From sequence record PX907402.1: 44,317 nucleotides of DNA; one strand, 5' to 3'. The stretch is from a phage. The notes under the pieces were generated by a model that saw only the letters and a list, made by a program, of their open reading frames with translations, did not search any database and was not told the origin of the DNA. Made by a program: the position numbers and the translations under genes. Shown piece after piece: positions 3,119-34,317 of the stretch. Numbering within the stretch: position 1 is the first letter of the stretch; each line of letters starts with the position of its first letter.

Positions 3119-3619
3119 TCACCCCCGGAATACGTCAAAATTACCCGCTGCGTTGCCGTCTGTGTCAATCCAGTGGCCCAGCAAGCCATCCCACCACGGG
3201 AACGAGACACCACTACCAATCGTCGCAGGGTCATATTCCATCGTGATCGGGCCAACAGTTTCGCGGATAGTCTCCTTACCACTGCCAACAGGAGAAATAT
3301 CAACATCGTCCGCCACCAACATTGCCAGCCGGTAAACGGCTTGCTCAACGGCAACAGGGATTGATGCGAAGTCTACAATCTGCCCAGCGGGAACTACTGC
3401 CAAATCTTCAGTAAGCGTGTTTTGCACCGGCTTCCCGTCCGATGGGTAGTTGATGCGGGGCCATGCGTCAATTCCTGTCGGGTCCGCCTGTTCGCCGATC
3501 CAGTTGAGGCCGTTAAGGAAGTCGTTAACGATGGTAATGTGTCGCGTTGCATCGCCTAGCGTAATTTCAACGCCTCGCGCAGCGGCATAATCGACAAAGG
3601 TTTGCGGGTCGCCATACAT
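3119..3619 (-). CDS. Head completion / connector protein (putative)
   Basis: ATG at 3619 preceded by AGGAG; directly downstream of major capsid terminator. Confidence 0.4.
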   Translation of the reverse strand: MYGDPQTFVDYAAARGVEITLGDATRHITIVNDFLNGLNWIGEQADPTGIDAWPRINYPSDGKPVQNTLTEDLAVVPAGQIVDFASIPVAVEQAVYRLAMLVADDVDISPVGSGKETIRETVGPITMEYDPATIGSGVSFPWWDGLLGHWIDTDGNAAGNFDVFRG

Positions 3620-5580: not shown

Positions 5581-5635
5581 GCTATCCCCCTGGGATTGTG
5601 GCAGAGCAGGCCACCCGCTCGACTTCACGCTTCTA

Positions 5636-5663
5636 ATATTATCAGCGATAAAAATAATCGCAA
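5636..5663 (-). promoter_or_regulatory. Candidate sigma70-like promoter for scaffold/capsid genes
   Basis: Minus strand TTGCGA-16 bp-TAATAT upstream of scaffold start. Confidence 0.3.
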
Positions 5664-5670
5664 AATTCGC

Positions 5671-5709
5671 TTGCAATCCTCGTATTGGTTGCACTATATT
5701 GGTTGCACT
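5671..5709 (+). promoter_or_regulatory. Candidate promoter for DnaN-like gene with two ATTGGTTGCAC direct repeats
   Basis: TTGCAA (5671-5676), 18 bp spacer, TATATT (5695-5700); motif copies at 5684-5694 and 5698-5708. Confidence 0.45.
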
Positions 5710-5729
5710 CCAACAACGAGGAAATGACA

Positions 5730-6242
5730 ATGATTAAAGTTAACTATGCTGATCTTAAAGCCGCTATGATGTGCGCCGCAACTAATGACGTGCGATACTA
5801 TCTGAACGGTGTATTTTTCGACGAGAAAGGATTCATTGTGGCCACCGACGGTCATCGCTTGTTCTGCGGGTCAGCGGTTGTTCCCGAAGGTGAAAGTAAA
5901 ATAGTAGCAATTAAAGGCCGCTTACCTACTAAATTCGAATACTGCAACATAGACGGCACATCCGCTGCGTTCTTTGATAGTAAAGACGTATTAATCGGTA
6001 CCATACCCGTAGAGATCGTAGACGGCCGATTCCCTGACTGGCGTAGATTTACGTCTTTTGACCGCGCTAAAGTGGAGGCTATAGGGTTTGCCGGGGCATA
6101 CCTGTCCGACGCCTGCAAAATTGCTAAATTGTTCGACCGTAAGTTTGATAGCTTAAAACTGGAATTTCAAGGAGTAGACAAGGCGACACGTGTGCTGTTC
6201 AAAGGCGGTGCCTTCCTTGTTATCATGCCGATGCGTTTGTAG
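5730..6242 (+). CDS. Truncated beta sliding clamp (DnaN) homologue, about 170 aa
   Basis: Contains DVRYYLNG, ATDGHRL, VDGRFPDWRR and C-terminal VIMPMRL, which I recall as hallmark segments of bacterial DnaN domain II and C-terminus; own promoter, RBS gagga, flanked by terminator; opposite strand to surrounding head genes. Confidence 0.7.
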   Translation: MIKVNYADLKAAMMCAATNDVRYYLNGVFFDEKGFIVATDGHRLFCGSAVVPEGESKIVAIKGRLPTKFEYCNIDGTSAAFFDSKDVLIGTIPVEIVDGRFPDWRRFTSFDRAKVEAIGFAGAYLSDACKIAKLFDRKFDSLKLEFQGVDKATRVLFKGGAFLVIMPMRL

Positions 6243-6246
6243 CTAA

Positions 6247-6283
6247 CAAAAAGGGGGCCATCACGGCCCTCGAATTATTTTTT
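6247..6283. terminator. Bidirectional intrinsic terminator
   Basis: gggcc-atcac-ggccc hairpin with A-run upstream and T-run downstream; overlaps stop of lipoprotein ORF. Confidence 0.5.
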
Positions 6284-6491
6284 GCAACTCCAGCACTTGC
6301 GCCCTTAGCTTAGCACCACACTCCATATTTTTAACATCAACCAGCAAGTCTTCGTCTGGATCTGCCGAGGCATTCTCAAATGTGCAAGGAGGTCTATAGA
6401 CCGACTCGGTTAGCGGCGTCGATGGCACGTTGCTTGATCCGCACGCGCTCATCATCAAAACGGCAATCAGTACGGTTAGGACGCGTAACAT
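6261..6491 (-). CDS. Outer-membrane lipoprotein, putative o-spanin (Rz1-like)
   Basis: Signal peptide with lipobox LMMSAC-G, 76 aa, ATG after aagagg RBS, embedded in alternate frame of overlapping TM/coiled-coil ORF. Confidence 0.45.
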   Translation of the reverse strand: MLRVLTVLIAVLMMSACGSSNVPSTPLTESVYRPPCTFENASADPDEDLLVDVKNMECGAKLRAQVLELQKIIRGP

Positions 6492-6702
6492 ATTTCACAA
6501 CCTCTTTCGTGATAGTCCTGTATTCCACATCGCGGGCCTGTTCTGCCTGCACCGACCCCTCGACGACCTTAGTTTGCTGCCGTTGGGCTTTCGCTTGCGC
6601 TTCTTGCGCCGCTCTCGCCTCAACGCCAGCGCGGTAGGAATCACCCAGCCAGAAGCCAACCGCCAGGCCGATAACCAACCCGATCGCTGCGTATTTAATC
6701 AC
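6394..6702 (-). CDS. Putative i-spanin (Rz-like); start uncertain (GTG 6702 or TTG 6732)
   Basis: N-terminal TM segment IKYAAIGLVIGLAVGFWLG followed by A/Q/E-rich coiled coil; overlaps lipoprotein ORF. Confidence 0.4.
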   Translation of the reverse strand: MIKYAAIGLVIGLAVGFWLGDSYRAGVEARAAQEAQAKAQRQQTKVVEGSVQAEQARDVEYRTITKEVVKYVTRPNRTDCRFDDERVRIKQRAIDAANRVGL

Positions 6703-7798
6703 GCCATAACCCCCGGTTTTTAAGCTGTGCAATAGTCATTAGCTCACCAGCATCGGTAAACATTTTCGGCACCTTCACGCCGCGCATAATCTGGTCCGCG
6801 CGCTGCACCCCGTATAATTCTTCCAGGATATGGCGCGGCTGGCGCTGCACCCATGAGAAGAAATCAGTTTGCGCGTCGACCTGCTCACTTAGCAATCGGC
6901 CCGCGTCAGCCTTCAGTGCCGGACGCTTACCACTGGGCCAATCTCCCATACCTTTGACTTTCCACGTCTCCGTCGAACGGCAGCAATAATGCAGCTTGCC
7001 CGGACCAGCGCCATATTGTGACCCAGCCACCATTTTCCCGCCGCGCTTTCCTTTGGTGTCGGGAGTAACATCAACCGGATAAAACAGGCGATCGCGTAGC
7101 TGGCACATGGGAGAAGTATGAGTGTCCAATGTAGATAACCATTGGCGACCTTCGAGAATATCGTCATTAGCTTTTACCATTAATTCTCGGGCTGTCGCCG
7201 CATAGTGGTTGACTGCGGACTTAACAACGCTCGAGATAGCTTGCGCACTACGACCACCTAGCGCGCGCCTCACGTCCGCGATAATTTCCATCGTTGGCTT
7301 GCCCTGGATGAATCCCGCTCGCACCTGGTTACCGATCTGCGTCCTGGTCCACTCAGAAAGTGAGTCAGGCCATTGCATCATAGTATTACCCTGGAACGGG
7401 TTTTTCATAGCCGTCGCTGCGATCTGCGCACCGGTCACTACGCCAACCACCTCGATCGCAGGTACGGCGACCACCGGCTGGATCGCTGCCGTTAATGTGT
7501 CGGTGAGATAATCAGCCTCCGTGTCGGCGAACTCCTGAAGGCTTTCAGCCAACGCCTTAAACTCGGTGCGCAATTCTGATTTAACGGTCTTGTCGATTTG
7601 CGTTAGCAGGGTGGAAAGTGCCCTGTTATTCATTGACGATTTGCCATCAAGCAACTCGGTCAGCTTTCCCAGTAATGTGGGCCGGAACTTCTCCCACATG
7701 GACAGCACCCGTCGCGCCTGGTCATTGCTCAGGCGCTGGGTGAAGATGTGACGGCGAATCATTCGATCCGCCATATATTGATTAATTGTCTTCGCCAT
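6695..7798 (-). CDS. Head morphogenesis protein (SPP1 gp7 / Mu F-like)
   Basis: 367 aa directly downstream of portal; segment WLSTLDTHTSPMCQLRDRLFY resembles family signature; synteny. Confidence 0.65.
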   Translation of the reverse strand: MAKTINQYMADRMIRRHIFTQRLSNDQARRVLSMWEKFRPTLLGKLTELLDGKSSMNNRALSTLLTQIDKTVKSELRTEFKALAESLQEFADTEADYLTDTLTAAIQPVVAVPAIEVVGVVTGAQIAATAMKNPFQGNTMMQWPDSLSEWTRTQIGNQVRAGFIQGKPTMEIIADVRRALGGRSAQAISSVVKSAVNHYAATARELMVKANDDILEGRQWLSTLDTHTSPMCQLRDRLFYPVDVTPDTKGKRGGKMVAGSQYGAGPGKLHYCCRSTETWKVKGMGDWPSGKRPALKADAGRLLSEQVDAQTDFFSWVQRQPRHILEELYGVQRADQIMRGVKVPKMFTDAGELMTIAQLKNRGLWRD

Positions 7799-9302
7799 TG
7801 TCCGCTACCTTGTCCGGGTCTTCTTCGGTAGATTCTACCGCATCCGGGGACATTTGAGGCAATGGATTCTGATTTCGCAATTCGTCTTCCACCTGCTCAA
7901 CGGTTTGCGAGTCATCAATGACGCCCTGGGCCATCATCCACTTGATAAAGTCCGCCAGACGGACCGTACCGGTCTGCACACCAGCCATCATTGCGGTCAT
8001 AAGCTGTGCGTCAACCGTGATTTCGGTGTAGAACTTATTCAGCGTTACGCGTTGATCTGCGGTGTCGCCCGTGAACAGCTTGACGATTTGCAGCGCACGG
8101 TTGAAAGCCTTCTCGACGTTACCGGCAATCAGTGACAGGATACTGTTATCAGTCTGCGCATCGTAGGCCGCTTCAGTTGCCGTCTTAGGTGCGGTCCCCT
8201 TCTCGACCAGGGCCGCGCCCAGTTTAGCCATTTGCAACTCGCGTCGCTCACACAGCGCAACCGACAGGTTTCTCTCCTCCGCCTGAAGCAGTTTAGCGTC
8301 CATGTTCTGGCCCAGGATAACGCCCTTAGTTGCCCCGAGCGCGATGCCACCCTTCAGGTTTTTATCCGCCCATGATTGGGTCAGACCGGTCGCAATGAGT
8401 GTAGGTTGGCCCACAATGTGCGCAATCTCGGCGACGTCTGCTTCGGCGTTGTAGTGCTTAATGTTGATGGATGCAATATCCGCCAGCGGTGCGGCGTCCG
8501 GCGTCGCGTTGTTGTCCACAGCACCACACCAGCAAAATGGCAGTTGAGTAAGCGCATTACCGGCGGCATCCACCAGCGGCACTAGGTCGGTGCGGGTGAA
8601 GCCACGCGGCAAGTCCATTTGCACTTCGGACGTGTCCGCGTTGTAAAACCAGCGGCGGGCGTGTGCCGCACCGTTAATCATGCGAAGCTCGGTCCAGATC
8701 GTAACTTCGTGGTTTGCGAAGTCGTCCGGGTCTTCGGTGCTGATTTCGTCCGTTTCCTTCAGCACAATTAGTGTGTCGACGCCGTGGGTCTGCCGCCAGT
8801 TGATGATCTGTTCTGCCGTGTACAGGCGGATAAGCGGGCGGTGTGACGCCATCTCGGCGGCGGTCTGCGGCACTACATTACCCCGTTCATCAAAATGCGC
8901 CTGGCGGTCATAGTCCACCATAAAGCCTGCGCGGCCCGATTGCAGCACTTCCGACATAGCGCCGCGCAGTAGTTGCGCCAGTGGCATCCCGCTGCCGTCT
9001 ACGTCATCAATCAGGTCAGCCATTGCCCCGGAAAGGTCCAGACTCACCGGTTTGGCGAAGGCCACGCCTAAAAGGGCATTCAGTGTGCGGGCGGTGGCGT
9101 TCAGGAAGACAGCACGTTGCTTGTACGCCTTATACCGCGCCCGTGCTTTCGGGTCAGTATTGTCGCCACTGGCGGGATGAGGCAGGTACAAGGGGCCGCA
9201 CGCCTTCACTGCGCGCTCCCCTGCTACGCAGTCACGGATCATTTTCCACTCTGGCGCTATGCGCGCATAGAGCGGGTGCTGGTTGTCAACGTTAACGGTC
9301 AT
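7782..9302 (-). CDS. Portal protein
   Basis: 506 aa ORF immediately downstream of large terminase; acidic C-terminus. Confidence 0.8.
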   Translation of the reverse strand: MTVNVDNQHPLYARIAPEWKMIRDCVAGERAVKACGPLYLPHPASGDNTDPKARARYKAYKQRAVFLNATARTLNALLGVAFAKPVSLDLSGAMADLIDDVDGSGMPLAQLLRGAMSEVLQSGRAGFMVDYDRQAHFDERGNVVPQTAAEMASHRPLIRLYTAEQIINWRQTHGVDTLIVLKETDEISTEDPDDFANHEVTIWTELRMINGAAHARRWFYNADTSEVQMDLPRGFTRTDLVPLVDAAGNALTQLPFCWCGAVDNNATPDAAPLADIASINIKHYNAEADVAEIAHIVGQPTLIATGLTQSWADKNLKGGIALGATKGVILGQNMDAKLLQAEERNLSVALCERRELQMAKLGAALVEKGTAPKTATEAAYDAQTDNSILSLIAGNVEKAFNRALQIVKLFTGDTADQRVTLNKFYTEITVDAQLMTAMMAGVQTGTVRLADFIKWMMAQGVIDDSQTVEQVEDELRNQNPLPQMSPDAVESTEEDPDKVADNGEDN

Positions 9303-11250: not shown

Positions 11251-11367
11251 GATATAAGCCCTTTTGTTCATATGCGCCGACCATCGGCGACATAGGAGAC
11301 GGCCCTGCCATCTAATGGGGATTATAACAGGCACAAAAAAGCCCACCAAATCGGCAGGCTGGGAGGC

Positions 11368-12784: not shown

Positions 12785-12808
12785 AAAAAGCCCGGTATTA
12801 TCCGGGCT
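12785..12808 (-). terminator. Intrinsic terminator after lysis cassette
   Basis: gcccgg-tattatc-ccgggc hairpin followed by T-run on minus strand. Confidence 0.5.
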
Positions 12809-12815
12809 TGATTGT

Positions 12816-12983
12816 TTACGCTGCGGGACCAGATTCCTCCTGCGGTGGCGGGCTAGGCAGCTTCGCGTCAAAGACGCCTGCATGGCTGATAGTGTCCGCG
12901 ATGATAGCGCGTGCGCCAGGGTCTTCGGTTTTAGCCAGCGCTGCGAGCGCATCAGCGTTATGATCAAGAATGCTTTTTAACAT
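12816..12983 (-). CDS. Small hypothetical protein (55 aa), below ORF-track cutoff
   Basis: ATG at 12983 after gaggaa RBS, stop at 12816 followed by terminator. Confidence 0.35.
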   Translation of the reverse strand: MLKSILDHNADALAALAKTEDPGARAIIADTISHAGVFDAKLPSPPPQEESGPAA

Positions 12984-12998: not shown

Positions 12999-13490
12999 TT
13001 ATGCTGCGTTACGCCCGATTTTCTCGGCAACGTCCCACTGCTTACCATCAAACAACGCCTGTCTGCCGATTGCACGGCGCACCAGACCCTTAAGCACTTC
13101 GCCACCTTGCTTGCGGAACTGCGGCAGAGTAGCACGGACCTTCGCCCAGTCGCCCAGGCGGACCGCGTCATCGAAATCATTCGCGACGTCATCCGGTACG
13201 ATCGGACCCGGACCGGCGTTGATTACCAGGTCCACCAGCGCGTCGAATTGCGCCTGGTTAATGCTCGGATGTGCGTATTTGTTCACCCAGTCCTCAGCAT
13301 ACGCCACATCGCGCTTGAGCAGTTCCAGCGCTTCAGCACGGGTAATGCTTCGAGGCGGGTTAGTTCCGGTGTGACCATAGCCCCAGGTGTACAGGCCGCG
13401 GGCCTGCTCTTTCTTGGTCGCGAAATACGGCACCGGGCTGAAAGCCTCCCATGCTGCCGTAAATCGTAGACCGTTATCACTGAATCGCAT
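12999..13490 (-). CDS. Endolysin, lysozyme (GH24-like)
   Basis: N-terminal EAFSPVPYFATKKEQARGLYTWGYGHTG matches phage lysozyme catalytic region; adjacent to holin genes. Confidence 0.8.
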   Translation of the reverse strand: MRFSDNGLRFTAAWEAFSPVPYFATKKEQARGLYTWGYGHTGTNPPRSITRAEALELLKRDVAYAEDWVNKYAHPSINQAQFDALVDLVINAGPGPIVPDDVANDFDDAVRLGDWAKVRATLPQFRKQGGEVLKGLVRRAIGRQALFDGKQWDVAEKIGRNAA

Positions 13491-13722
13491 GTTTTACCCC
13501 ATTCAAAACAGCATTACGCAGGGTGCGCAATGCAAACAGCCAGATTAACGCGGTCCAGGTGGCATCAGAGACGTCTCCAGTTTGCAACAGCCCGATAATA
13601 CAGATCATTGCCGTTAGCAGATATAACACCCGACCGAAGAAGCCATCCTGAACGGACGGCGCATACACGTTAAACAGGGACGAAGCCCCTATGATAACAA
13701 ACAACAGGACGGAGATAATCAT
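13477..13722 (-). CDS. Holin or antiholin (81 aa membrane protein)
   Basis: ATG 13722 after aggggg RBS, two to three hydrophobic segments, overlaps endolysin start. Confidence 0.5.
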   Translation of the reverse strand: MIISVLLFVIIGASSLFNVYAPSVQDGFFGRVLYLLTAMICIIGLLQTGDVSDATWTALIWLFALRTLRNAVLNGVKHAIQ

Positions 13723-14009
13723 TTTGCACCCCCTGGAAGTCGGAACGACGCAATAGTCTCCCGGATCCGGTCCGCTATTGGCATCCAGAAGATGGCAGTT
13801 GCGAAGCCCAAACCGGCGACAGTGCGCTCGCCAGACAAACCAGACCACTCGGCAATAGCTGGCGCACCAAATATGGCACACAGGAAGCCAACTACGACAT
13901 ATAAAACGAAGTTCAACGGCCCTTTCGTTGCCTCGCCATGAATGCGTGCGCCTACGAAGCCACCAGCAAGACACGCAAGGGCGAATAACCACTCGTTTAG
14001 CTTATCCAT
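13719..14009 (-). CDS. Holin-like membrane protein (96 aa, about three TM segments)
   Basis: Hydrophobic segments; ATGA overlap with downstream holin gene. Confidence 0.5.
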   Translation of the reverse strand: MDKLNEWLFALACLAGGFVGARIHGEATKGPLNFVLYVVVGFLCAIFGAPAIAEWSGLSGERTVAGLGFATAIFWMPIADRIRETIASFRLPGGAK

Positions 14010-14043
14010 AAAAAAGTCCCAGTAAGTTTTAGCTCACTGGGAC
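14010..14043 (-). terminator. Intrinsic terminator immediately upstream of lysis cassette
   Basis: gtcccagt-12 nt loop-actgggac hairpin followed by T6 on minus strand. Confidence 0.4.
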
Positions 14044-14061
14044 TATATCACGCTTGCATAA

Positions 14062-14361
14062 TTAATCGAAAATGGACCACTTGCCGACGCCTTTCCACTC
14101 CCATCCACTAGACCGGACGGCTTCGAATGTGCGCCCGCCTATCATATCCCGATACCACAGCCACCACATGCGCAACATGGTCGGGTGCTCCGTGATTCCA
14201 CGGCGCTTGTATATCTGGAATGTCATCCGGGTAATGCTGGCAGCTTCCACCGCAGGCCATACCAGGAATACCCATATTGCGCCCAGCACTCCCGTAACCA
14301 GGCATAACATGCTGGCCATACCAAACCAATAAATCACATCATGAATCATAATCTGCTCCAT
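14062..14361 (-). CDS. Hypothetical membrane protein
   Basis: 99 aa ORF with hydrophobic N-terminal segment. Confidence 0.4.
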   Translation of the reverse strand: MEQIMIHDVIYWFGMASMLCLVTGVLGAIWVFLVWPAVEAASITRMTFQIYKRRGITEHPTMLRMWWLWYRDMIGGRTFEAVRSSGWEWKGVGKWSIFD

Positions 14362-34098: not shown

Positions 34099-34317
34099 AT
34101 GAAAACTTTAATTATGATTTGTGCGGTTCTTTTGTCCGGTTGTGCCAACATGCCGTCTAAAATCTGCGACGCAACATACATGAATAGTGGTATGGAGTAT
34201 TCCGTCCCTGTGTTTGGGGTTGCGGACGTTAGCGGTCATAAAATGCTCAAGGCCGGGTATCCGTTCAACTTCCAGTATGTGTCGATAGACCACTTCAAAA
34301 GCACCACCTGCGAATAA
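34099..34317 (+). CDS. Lipoprotein, possible Cor-like superinfection exclusion protein
   Basis: Signal peptide with lipobox LLSG-C, 72 aa, RBS aggag, own promoter and terminator, opposite strand to tail genes. Confidence 0.55.
   Translation: MKTLIMICAVLLSGCANMPSKICDATYMNSGMEYSVPVFGVADVSGHKMLKAGYPFNFQYVSIDHFKSTTCE

What the first reader, a model, noticed from the sequence alone, without database searches (positions are those of the whole stretch)
6261..6732. Spanin-like overlapped gene pair located in the head module, far from the holin-endolysin cassette
A TM-plus-coiled-coil ORF (6394..6702/6732) has a lipoprotein ORF (6261..6491) embedded out of frame in its 3' half, which is the Rz/Rz1 architecture. 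The holins and GH24 endolysin sit ~6.5 kb away (12999..14009) with no spanin next to them. A split lysis module is uncommon; alternatively the pair could be a second exclusion or envelope-modifying module.
Basis: inference. Interest (0 to 1): 0.4.

Follow-up and report, generated by a model that had tools for sequence, protein, structure and literature searches.

The report
Known spanin pair of a Dhillonvirus
The two overlapping small genes are the phage's outer-membrane-breaking "spanin" pair. Their position among the head genes, away from the other lysis genes, is normal and already annotated for this phage group, so the finding is correct but ordinary.

Summary
On the minus strand, an i-spanin (6394..6702, GTG start, 102 aa, N-terminal membrane helix) overlaps an o-spanin lipoprotein by 98 nt. 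The o-spanin (6261..6491, 76 aa, lipobox MSAC) lies in the +1 frame and runs 133 nt past the i-spanin stop. The architecture is therefore overlapped (P2 LysB/LysC type), not embedded (lambda type).

Both ORFs are real genes:
- They are intact in all 15 related genomes compared.
- Third-codon-position variability switches frame between the i-only and o-only parts.
- Both hit PHROG "Rz-like spanin" families (E 4e-36 and 1e-25).

The window is a Dhillonvirus genome, about 93-95% identical to SO-1 and other members. The same pair is already annotated as spanins in RefSeq SO-1 and in BASEL phages. Kongari et al. 2018 place the Dhillonvirus spanins (EP23, HK578, JL1, SSL-2009a, SO-1) in the overlapped "Jersey" family.

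The split from the holin-holin-endolysin cassette (12999..14009) is real. No other spanin candidate exists in the window. The same head-module location is found in Jerseyvirus, Kagunavirus and Cornellvirus, so it is a lineage trait, with T4 as another precedent. Function rests on homology and architecture; I found no experiment on this family in the papers I searched. Novelty: already known. Interest: low.

The parts
6394..6702 (-). i-spanin (inner-membrane spanin subunit), 102 aa from the GTG start. A TTG at 6732 would add 10 residues but has no support.
   Evidence: Matches phrog_2536 'Rz-like spanin' at E 3.8e-36. N-terminal membrane helix at residues 1-20. 37% identical to the Kagunavirus Schulenburg i-spanin. 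The orthologue is annotated as spanin in SO-1 and TheodorHerzl. Intact in 15/15 genomes.
6261..6491 (-). o-spanin (outer-membrane lipoprotein subunit), 76 aa, in the +1 frame. Lipobox MSAC with Cys17, Gly at +2, and two conserved periplasmic Cys.
   Evidence: Matches phrog_5672 'Rz-like spanin' at E 1.2e-25. 38% identical to the Kagunavirus o-spanin ORF. 76 aa, intact, with a conserved lipobox in 15/15 genomes. Third-position variability follows this frame in the o-only part.
6394..6491 (-). 98-nt region read in two frames: the i-spanin C-terminus and the o-spanin signal peptide.
   Evidence: Coordinates. Variability is damped here: pi at the i-frame third position is 0.12, against 0.22 in the i-only part.
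6253..6271 (.). Bidirectional terminator-like hairpin. On the minus strand it includes the last o-spanin codons (GGG CCG TGA) and is followed by a T-run. It also ends the convergent clamp-like gene.
   Evidence: Consensus scan only.
6695..7798 (-). Head-morphogenesis (minor capsid) gene directly upstream. Its stop overlaps the i-spanin start by 8 nt, which suggests co-transcription and translational coupling.
   Evidence: Matches phrog_241 at E 1.9e-115. Coordinates.
13719..14009 (-). Holin 1 of the distant lysis cassette.
   Evidence: Matches phrog_2359 'holin' at E 3.5e-31.
13477..13722 (-). Holin 2, 81 aa from an internal ATG of the ORF 13477..13992.
   Evidence: Matches phrog_2508 'holin' at E 2.5e-26.
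12999..13490 (-). Endolysin (lysozyme-like).
   Evidence: Matches phrog_7 'endolysin' at E 6.6e-36.

Best explanation
This is the two-component spanin of a Dhillonvirus siphophage, of the overlapped 'Jersey' family.

The i-spanin is anchored in the inner membrane by its N-terminal helix and extends a mostly helical domain into the periplasm. The o-spanin is exported, lipidated on Cys17 and sorted to the outer membrane; the Gly at +2 means there is no inner-membrane retention signal. The C-terminal parts of the two proteins bind each other across the periplasm, and conserved cysteines allow covalent homodimers.

The complexes accumulate harmlessly during late infection because the peptidoglycan mesh holds them in place. 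Once the holins (13477..14009) release the endolysin (12999..13490) and the wall is degraded, the spanins fuse the inner and outer membranes and complete lysis.

The pair is expressed as the last cistrons of the late packaging and head operon (terminase, portal, head-morphogenesis, spanins, terminator) rather than from the holin-endolysin cassette. This works because spanin action is gated by wall degradation, not by when the spanin is made.

Shown here: gene reality, architecture, sorting signals, homology and synteny. Inferred: topology, complex formation, membrane fusion and the operon structure.
For: - Both ORFs are present, and open in 15/15 related genomes.
- Codon-position variability switches frame between the i-only part (23/11/44) and the o-only part (12/6/24).
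- The PHROG spanin families phrog_2536 and phrog_5672 match at E 4e-36 and 1e-25. Jerseyvirus SeF1 has the same two PHROGs for its spanins and the same holin PHROGs 2359 and 2508 (PMC9409062).
- There is an N-terminal membrane helix and a lipobox with a non-Asp +2 residue.
- BLASTP shows homology of both subunits to the Kagunavirus pair.
- RefSeq and BASEL annotate the orthologues as spanins.
- Kongari et al. 2018 list EP23, HK578, JL1, SSL-2009a and SO-1 in the overlapped Jersey family for both i- and o-spanins, with two constant o-spanin Cys (PMC6139136).
- The whole window (genome-length) holds only one other credible lipoprotein, a Cor-family protein without a C-terminal membrane helix.
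- The same head-module position occurs in Cornellvirus, Kagunavirus and Jerseyvirus.
- In Kagunavirus Golestan and Dhillonvirus P78, published gene numbers place the spanin several genes from the holins and endolysin.
- A terminator-like hairpin sits at the o-spanin stop.
Against: - In the papers I searched, I found no member of this spanin family that had been tested experimentally. Function rests on homology and architecture.
- There is no Pfam match for either protein.
- The single-sequence AlphaFold model of the i-spanin has low confidence (mean pLDDT 63.5). Its helix-break-helix pattern is therefore only weak support.
- The operon structure is inferred from gene packing and simple consensus scans.
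Confidence: 0.9

Rival explanations
1. The pair is a superinfection-exclusion or envelope-modifying module, not a lysis function. It would be an inner-membrane protein and a lipoprotein that block entry of competing phages.
For: It lies outside the lysis cassette and next to a convergent, moron-like clamp gene. Small lipoproteins such as Cor or Llp are often exclusion factors.
Against: Both proteins match spanin families, not exclusion families. The window already has a Cor-family lipoprotein at the receptor-binding locus. Without this pair the genome has no spanin at all. The +1 overlapped pairing of a membrane-helix protein with a lipoprotein is the spanin signature (PMC6139136). The gene is co-oriented and coupled with late structural genes rather than expressed like an early moron.
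Confidence: 0.03
2. The lipoprotein ORF is a chance out-of-frame ORF within and after a real membrane-protein gene.
For: Short overlapping ORFs are common by chance. Several other out-of-frame ORFs are listed in the same stretch.
Against: The ORF is 76 aa and intact at the same offset in 15/15 genomes, with a conserved lipobox and cysteines. Third-position variability follows its frame downstream of the i-spanin stop. It matches a PHROG at E 1e-25 and is homologous to Kagunavirus. An AAGAGG ribosome-binding site precedes its ATG.
Confidence: 0.01
3. The pair is a spanin relic, and outer-membrane disruption is carried out by something else. Candidates are an unrecognised small disruptin-like peptide or the 55-aa ORF after the endolysin (12816..12983).
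For: The 55-aa ORF sits where a spanin normally would and has no known function (phrog_11068).
Against: Both spanin genes are under purifying selection with all functional motifs kept. The 55-aa protein has no membrane helix or lipobox, and its sequence is acidic rather than cationic-amphipathic.
Confidence: 0.04

Closest known systems
Jersey-family overlapped two-component spanins (Kongari et al. 2018), short subfamily EP23/HK578/JL1/SSL-2009a/SO-1
   Same: Orthologous, with 72-98% identity among the 14 viral contigs fetched for the i-spanin. It has the same overlapped +1 architecture, the same lengths, the same conserved Cys pattern and the same genome position.
   Different: Nothing of substance. 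The window's i-spanin has the 102-aa C-terminal variant, as in SO-1, rather than the 109-aa variant of most members.
Spanins of Guernseyvirinae (Jerseyvirus, Kagunavirus, Cornellvirus)
   Same: Both subunits are homologous at 37-38% identity and fall in the same PHROGs. The pair also lies in the head module, just upstream of scaffold and major capsid, far from a holin-holin-endolysin cassette of the same PHROG families.
   Different: The i-spanin is longer (about 128 aa). Local gene order differs: in Kagunavirus the opposite-strand clamp gene comes before the spanins, whereas here it comes after them.
Phage lambda Rz/Rz1
   Same: It has the same logic: a type II inner-membrane protein plus an outer-membrane lipoprotein in the +1 frame, with periplasmic cysteines. 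The presumed role is the same, the last step of lysis.
   Different: Rz1 is fully embedded in Rz and lies directly after S and R. Here the genes only overlap by 98 nt and are 6.3 kb from the endolysin. No lambda-type spanin match was reported: the only PHROG spanin hits were phrog_2536, 1152, 8821, 5672 and 1267, and Pfam gave nothing.
Phage P2 LysB/LysC and T4 PseT.3/PseT.2
   Same: P2 is the type example of the overlapped architecture. T4 is the type example of spanin genes located away from the holin and endolysin (PMC6139136).
   Different: These are different sequence families. The T4 genes are separated, not overlapped, and the P2 genes sit in the lysis cassette.

Membership tests
Two-component spanin (Rz/Rz1 type) | The i-spanin has a single N-terminal membrane helix, with the rest of the protein periplasmic (type II topology). 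| tested here: met
   The only hydrophobic 19-mer windows are residues 1-19 and 2-20 (KD 2.0 and 1.8). Lys3 lies on the N side. Topology itself is inferred.
Two-component spanin (Rz/Rz1 type) | The i-spanin periplasmic domain is largely alpha-helical, as helix-linker-helix with coiled-coil character. | tested here: inconclusive
   The single-sequence AlphaFold2 model gives helices 3-72 and 82-100 with a break at 73-81, but mean pLDDT is only 63.5. This agrees with the two-helix description of this subfamily in PMC6139136.
Two-component spanin (Rz/Rz1 type) | The o-spanin has a signal peptidase II signal with a lipobox Cys and no Asp at +2, which directs it to the outer membrane. | tested here: met
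   The signal is MLRVLTVLIAVLMMSAC-GS. The lipobox is conserved as L/M-S/T-A-C in 15/15 genomes. Lipidation itself was not tested.
Two-component spanin (Rz/Rz1 type) | The o-spanin gene lies in the +1 frame, embedded in, overlapping or directly following the i-spanin gene. | tested here: met
   The offset is +211 nt, so the frame is +1. The overlap is 98 nt and the o-spanin extends 133 nt beyond the i-spanin stop. This is the overlapped class.
Two-component spanin (Rz/Rz1 type) | Periplasmic cysteines are present for intermolecular disulfide bonds. | tested here: met
   The i-spanin has one invariant Cys (residue 80) and the mature o-spanin has two, in 15/15 genomes. PMC6139136 notes two constant Cys in Jersey-family o-spanins. 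Disulfide formation was not tested.
Two-component spanin (Rz/Rz1 type) | The pair is required for outer-membrane disruption, complements lambda Rz/Rz1 defects, and its i- and o-subunits bind each other. | not testable with these tools
   I found no experimental test of this family in the literature searched.
Jersey spanin family (Kongari 2018) / PHROG 2536 + 5672 | Both subunits show sequence homology to family members. | tested here: met
   phrog_2536 matches at E 3.8e-36 and phrog_5672 at E 1.2e-25. BLASTP to the Kagunavirus pair gives E 9e-14 and 1e-14. Named Dhillonvirus members are listed in the family.
Canonical contiguous lysis cassette (holin-endolysin-spanin) | The spanin genes are adjacent to the holin and endolysin. 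| tested here: not met
   The i-spanin start at 6702 is 6.3 kb from the endolysin stop at 12999. Seven genes lie between them (a 55-aa ORF, exonuclease, a 70-aa ORF, both terminase subunits, portal and head-morphogenesis). Adjacency is not a defining feature of spanins; T4 is the precedent.
Unimolecular spanin (T1 gp11 type) | A single protein carries both an N-terminal lipobox and a C-terminal membrane helix. | tested here: not met
   Neither credible lipoprotein in the window has a C-terminal hydrophobic segment. The best 19-mer KD after the Cys is 0.48 for the o-spanin and 0.53 for the Cor-like protein.

The most novel reading that the evidence does not exclude
Placing the spanin genes at the end of the packaging and head operon, conserved across Dhillonvirus and Guernseyvirinae, could be functionally meaningful rather than a historical accident. 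For example, it might tie spanin dosage to virion production, or the pair might have a second role in the envelope during assembly or exclusion. The evidence here does not exclude this, and nothing points to it.
Probability: 0.04. Interest if true: 0.45.

Novelty: already known. Interest (0 to 1): 0.08.

Why it matters
It matters little beyond correct annotation. The check confirms that this genome has a complete lysis set: two holins, an endolysin and a two-component spanin. It also shows that the spanin should be looked for in the head module in this phage lineage, where several GenBank records still call these ORFs 'hypothetical protein'. The conserved split arrangement is a reminder that spanin genes need not be linked to the holin and endolysin, because spanin action is gated by wall degradation.

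Tried and rejected
- Pfam scan of both proteins found no family.
- A genome-wide search for a second spanin used strict and relaxed lipobox scans on all six frames. It returned only the o-spanin, a Cor-family lipoprotein (34099..34317), and ORFs that lie antisense to or inside large genes; I rejected those as non-genes.
- I considered the 55-aa ORF after the endolysin (12816..12983) and the 99-aa membrane protein before the holins (14062..14361) as lysis accessories. Both fall in PHROGs of unknown function, and neither has spanin features.
- Single-sequence AlphaFold2 of the i-spanin gave only a low-confidence model. I did not run a fold search on it.
- I did not run the large protein-database searches (search for homologous proteins, the search of protein representatives). 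Phage-collection hits, PHROGs and the literature had already settled the identity.
- Literature searches for an experimental test of this spanin family found none.

Full report
**What is there**

All features are on the minus strand of 6261..6732. An ORF of 112 aa runs from a TTG at 6732; from the GTG at 6702 it is 102 aa. The GTG is the credible start for four reasons:
- It overlaps the TAA stop of the upstream 367-aa head-morphogenesis gene (6695..7798) by 8 nt.
- It is preceded by GGGGG.
- It is the start used in RefSeq for the Sodalis phage SO-1 orthologue.
- The PHROG profile match begins at residue 11 of the TTG version.

The protein begins with a 20-residue hydrophobic segment, VIKYAAIGLVIGLAVGFWLG. 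The rest is charged and rich in Ala, Gln and Glu.

A second ORF runs 6261..6491 (76 aa, ATG preceded by AAGAGG). It starts 211 nt after the GTG, so it is in the +1 frame, and encodes MLRVLTVLIAVLMMSAC|GSS.... This is a signal peptidase II signal with a lipobox and Gly at +2.

The two genes share 98 nt (6394..6491), and the lipoprotein gene continues 133 nt beyond the i-spanin stop. The arrangement is 'overlapped', not 'embedded'.

**Is it more than chance?**

I fetched 14 related viral contigs and compared them with the window.
- The i-spanin ORF is open in all 15 genomes, at 102 or 109 aa.
- The o-spanin ORF is always 76 aa at the same offset.
- The lipobox, two periplasmic Cys in the o-spanin and one Cys in the i-spanin are invariant.

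Variable sites by codon position show which frame is under selection:

| Region | Frame | Variable sites at positions 1/2/3 | Sites per position | Third-position pi |
|---|---|---|---|---|
| i-only part | i-frame | 23/11/44 | about 70 | 0.22 |
| o-only part | o-frame | 12/6/24 | about 37 | 0.229 |
| overlap | i-frame | 9/4/14 | about 32 | 0.12 |

The periodicity switches frame where expected, and third-position diversity is damped in the overlap. Both ORFs are therefore protein-coding and under purifying selection.

**What it is**

The window is a Dhillonvirus genome.
- The region 5600..7900 is 94.8% identical to Sodalis phage SO-1 and 91-93% identical to many Escherichia phages.
- The first 25 kb are about 93% identical over about 95% of their length to several Dhillonvirus genomes of 42.6-44.6 kb.
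- At 44.3 kb, the window is essentially genome-length.

The i-spanin matches phrog_2536 (E 3.8e-36) and the o-spanin matches phrog_5672 (E 1.2e-25). Both PHROGs are labelled 'Rz-like spanin'. Pfam has no family for either protein.

The orthologues are already annotated: 'Rz-like spanin' in RefSeq SO-1 (gp05, gp06), and 'i-spanin' and 'o-spanin' in BASEL phage TheodorHerzl and its relatives. Kongari et al. 2018 (PMC6139136) list the Dhillonvirus phages EP23, HK578, JL1, SSL-2009a and SO-1 in the overlapped 'Jersey' family, in both the i-spanin and the o-spanin tables. They describe these phages as a shorter subfamily with two helices and a linker, and note two constant o-spanin cysteines.

A single-sequence AlphaFold2 model gives helices 3-72 and 82-100 with a break at 73-81. 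Confidence is low (mean pLDDT 63.5), so this is only consistent with the description, not proof of it.

**The 'split lysis module'**

The cassette at 12999..14009 holds holin 1 (phrog_2359), holin 2 (phrog_2508) and an endolysin (phrog_7). It is followed by a 55-aa ORF of unknown function that has no membrane helix or lipobox.

No other spanin exists in the window. Six-frame lipobox scans, strict and relaxed, return only the o-spanin, a 72-aa lipoprotein at 34099..34317, and ORFs antisense to large genes. The 72-aa lipoprotein belongs to the Cor superinfection-exclusion family (phrog_1119, E 2e-27). It has no C-terminal membrane helix, so it is not a unimolecular spanin. The refutation condition 'a different spanin elsewhere' is therefore not met.

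The separation is not special to this genome, however.
- Both subunits are homologous to the spanin pair of Kagunavirus Schulenburg (37% and 38% identity).
- In Kagunavirus, Cornellvirus and Jerseyvirus the pair also lies in the head module, between the head-morphogenesis gene and the scaffold and major-capsid genes.
- Published gene numbering shows the same split in three phages:

| Phage | Genus | Holins | Endolysin | Spanin(s) | Source |
|---|---|---|---|---|---|
| Golestan | Kagunavirus | ORF66, ORF67 | ORF68 | ORF7, ORF8 | PMC7203180, |
| SeF1 | Jerseyvirus | Gp_063, Gp_064 | Gp_065 | Gp_009, Gp_010 | PMC9409062, |
| vB_EcoS_P78 | Dhillonvirus | 0031, 0032 | 0033 | 0040 | PMC12677095, |

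- SeF1 uses the very same PHROGs for its spanins (2536, 5672) and holins (2359, 2508) as this window.

T4 is the classical precedent for spanin genes unlinked to the holin and endolysin (PMC6139136).

**How it most likely works**

The mechanism below is inferred from established spanin biology (the lambda Rz/Rz1 work summarised in PMC6139136).
1. The i-spanin sits in the inner membrane.
2. The o-spanin is lipidated and sorted to the outer membrane.
3. Their C-terminal regions bind across the periplasm, and disulfide-linked homodimers form.
4. The complexes stay caged by the peptidoglycan until the holins trigger and the endolysin degrades it.
5. Lateral movement and conformational change then fuse the two membranes.

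Because spanin activity is gated by wall removal, the genes only need late expression. They get this here as the last cistrons of a tightly packed, co-oriented series: terminase small subunit, terminase large subunit, portal, head-morphogenesis, i-spanin, o-spanin.

A hairpin and T-run at 6269..6255 includes the o-spanin stop codon and ends this series. It also serves the convergent clamp-like gene at 5685..6242. Terminator-like hairpins at 12809..12788 and 11360..11340 suggest that the lysis cassette and the packaging-spanin operon are separate transcription units. These are consensus matches only, so the operon structure is an inference.

**Rivals**

- An exclusion or envelope-modifying role has no positive support. 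It would also leave the phage without any spanin.
- The 'chance ORF' reading is refuted.
- A relic spanin replaced by another outer-membrane disruptor is unlikely, given purifying selection on every functional motif.

**Verdict**

The feature is already known and annotated, and its location is the norm for this lineage. The one open point is that the function of this spanin family is inferred: I found no experimental test of it in the papers I searched.

Noticed in passing
window 34099..34317 (+): A 72-aa lipoprotein (MKTLIMICAVLLSGC...) of the Cor superinfection-exclusion family (phrog_1119, E 2e-27). It lies on the opposite strand between tail-fibre and receptor-binding genes. Cor proteins block FhuA, so this phage probably uses FhuA as its receptor.
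   Followed up: partly
window 5685..6242 (+): A 185-aa gene convergent on the spanins carries conflicting public names. Pfam gives a sub-threshold DNA polymerase III beta (sliding clamp) central-domain hit (23.7 bits against a cutoff of 27). Its PHROG (3007, E 2e-55) is labelled 'RusA-like Holliday junction resolvase', which RefSeq SO-1 repeats. An opposite-strand 'sliding clamp' gene also sits beside the spanins in Kagunavirus Schulenburg. At roughly half the length of a clamp monomer, its real function is unclear.
   Followed up: partly
window 12816..12983 (-): A 55-aa acidic ORF lies directly after the endolysin, where a spanin would usually be. It is conserved (phrog_11068, E 6e-39), of unknown function, and has no membrane helix or lipobox. 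A terminator-like hairpin follows at 12809..12788.
   Followed up: partly
window 14062..14361 (-): A 99-aa membrane protein (phrog_2531, unknown function) lies just upstream of the two holins. A strong 12-bp hairpin plus T-run (14044..14015) separates it from them. It could be a lysis accessory such as an antiholin, or unrelated.
   Followed up: no
window 6394..6414 and loci L005-L018 (about 3286..3327): The i-spanin C-terminus comes in two lengths among Dhillonvirus genomes. It is 102 aa in the window, SO-1 (L005), L006, L012 and L016; four of these end ...ANRVGL, while the divergent L016 ends ...ANGIGN. It is 109 aa, ending in ...ANGVG(T/A)ATAVQVR, in the other ten. The change lies in the region that also encodes the o-spanin just after its lipobox.
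   Followed up: partly
L004 6125..6271 (Escherichia phage Schulenburg, MK931438.1): The GenBank 'o-spanin' CDS (48 aa) starts after the lipobox. The signal and lipobox (...ALSTMLASC) lie upstream in the same ORF (5948..6271). The annotated start is therefore probably wrong.
   Followed up: no
window 6261..6702, compared with public records: Many GenBank Dhillonvirus records still label one or both of these ORFs 'hypothetical protein', or omit the o-spanin. Examples are AV129, WF5505, EP23 (JN984867), BEK2-2 and ZCEC12. RefSeq and BASEL records call them spanins.
   Followed up: no
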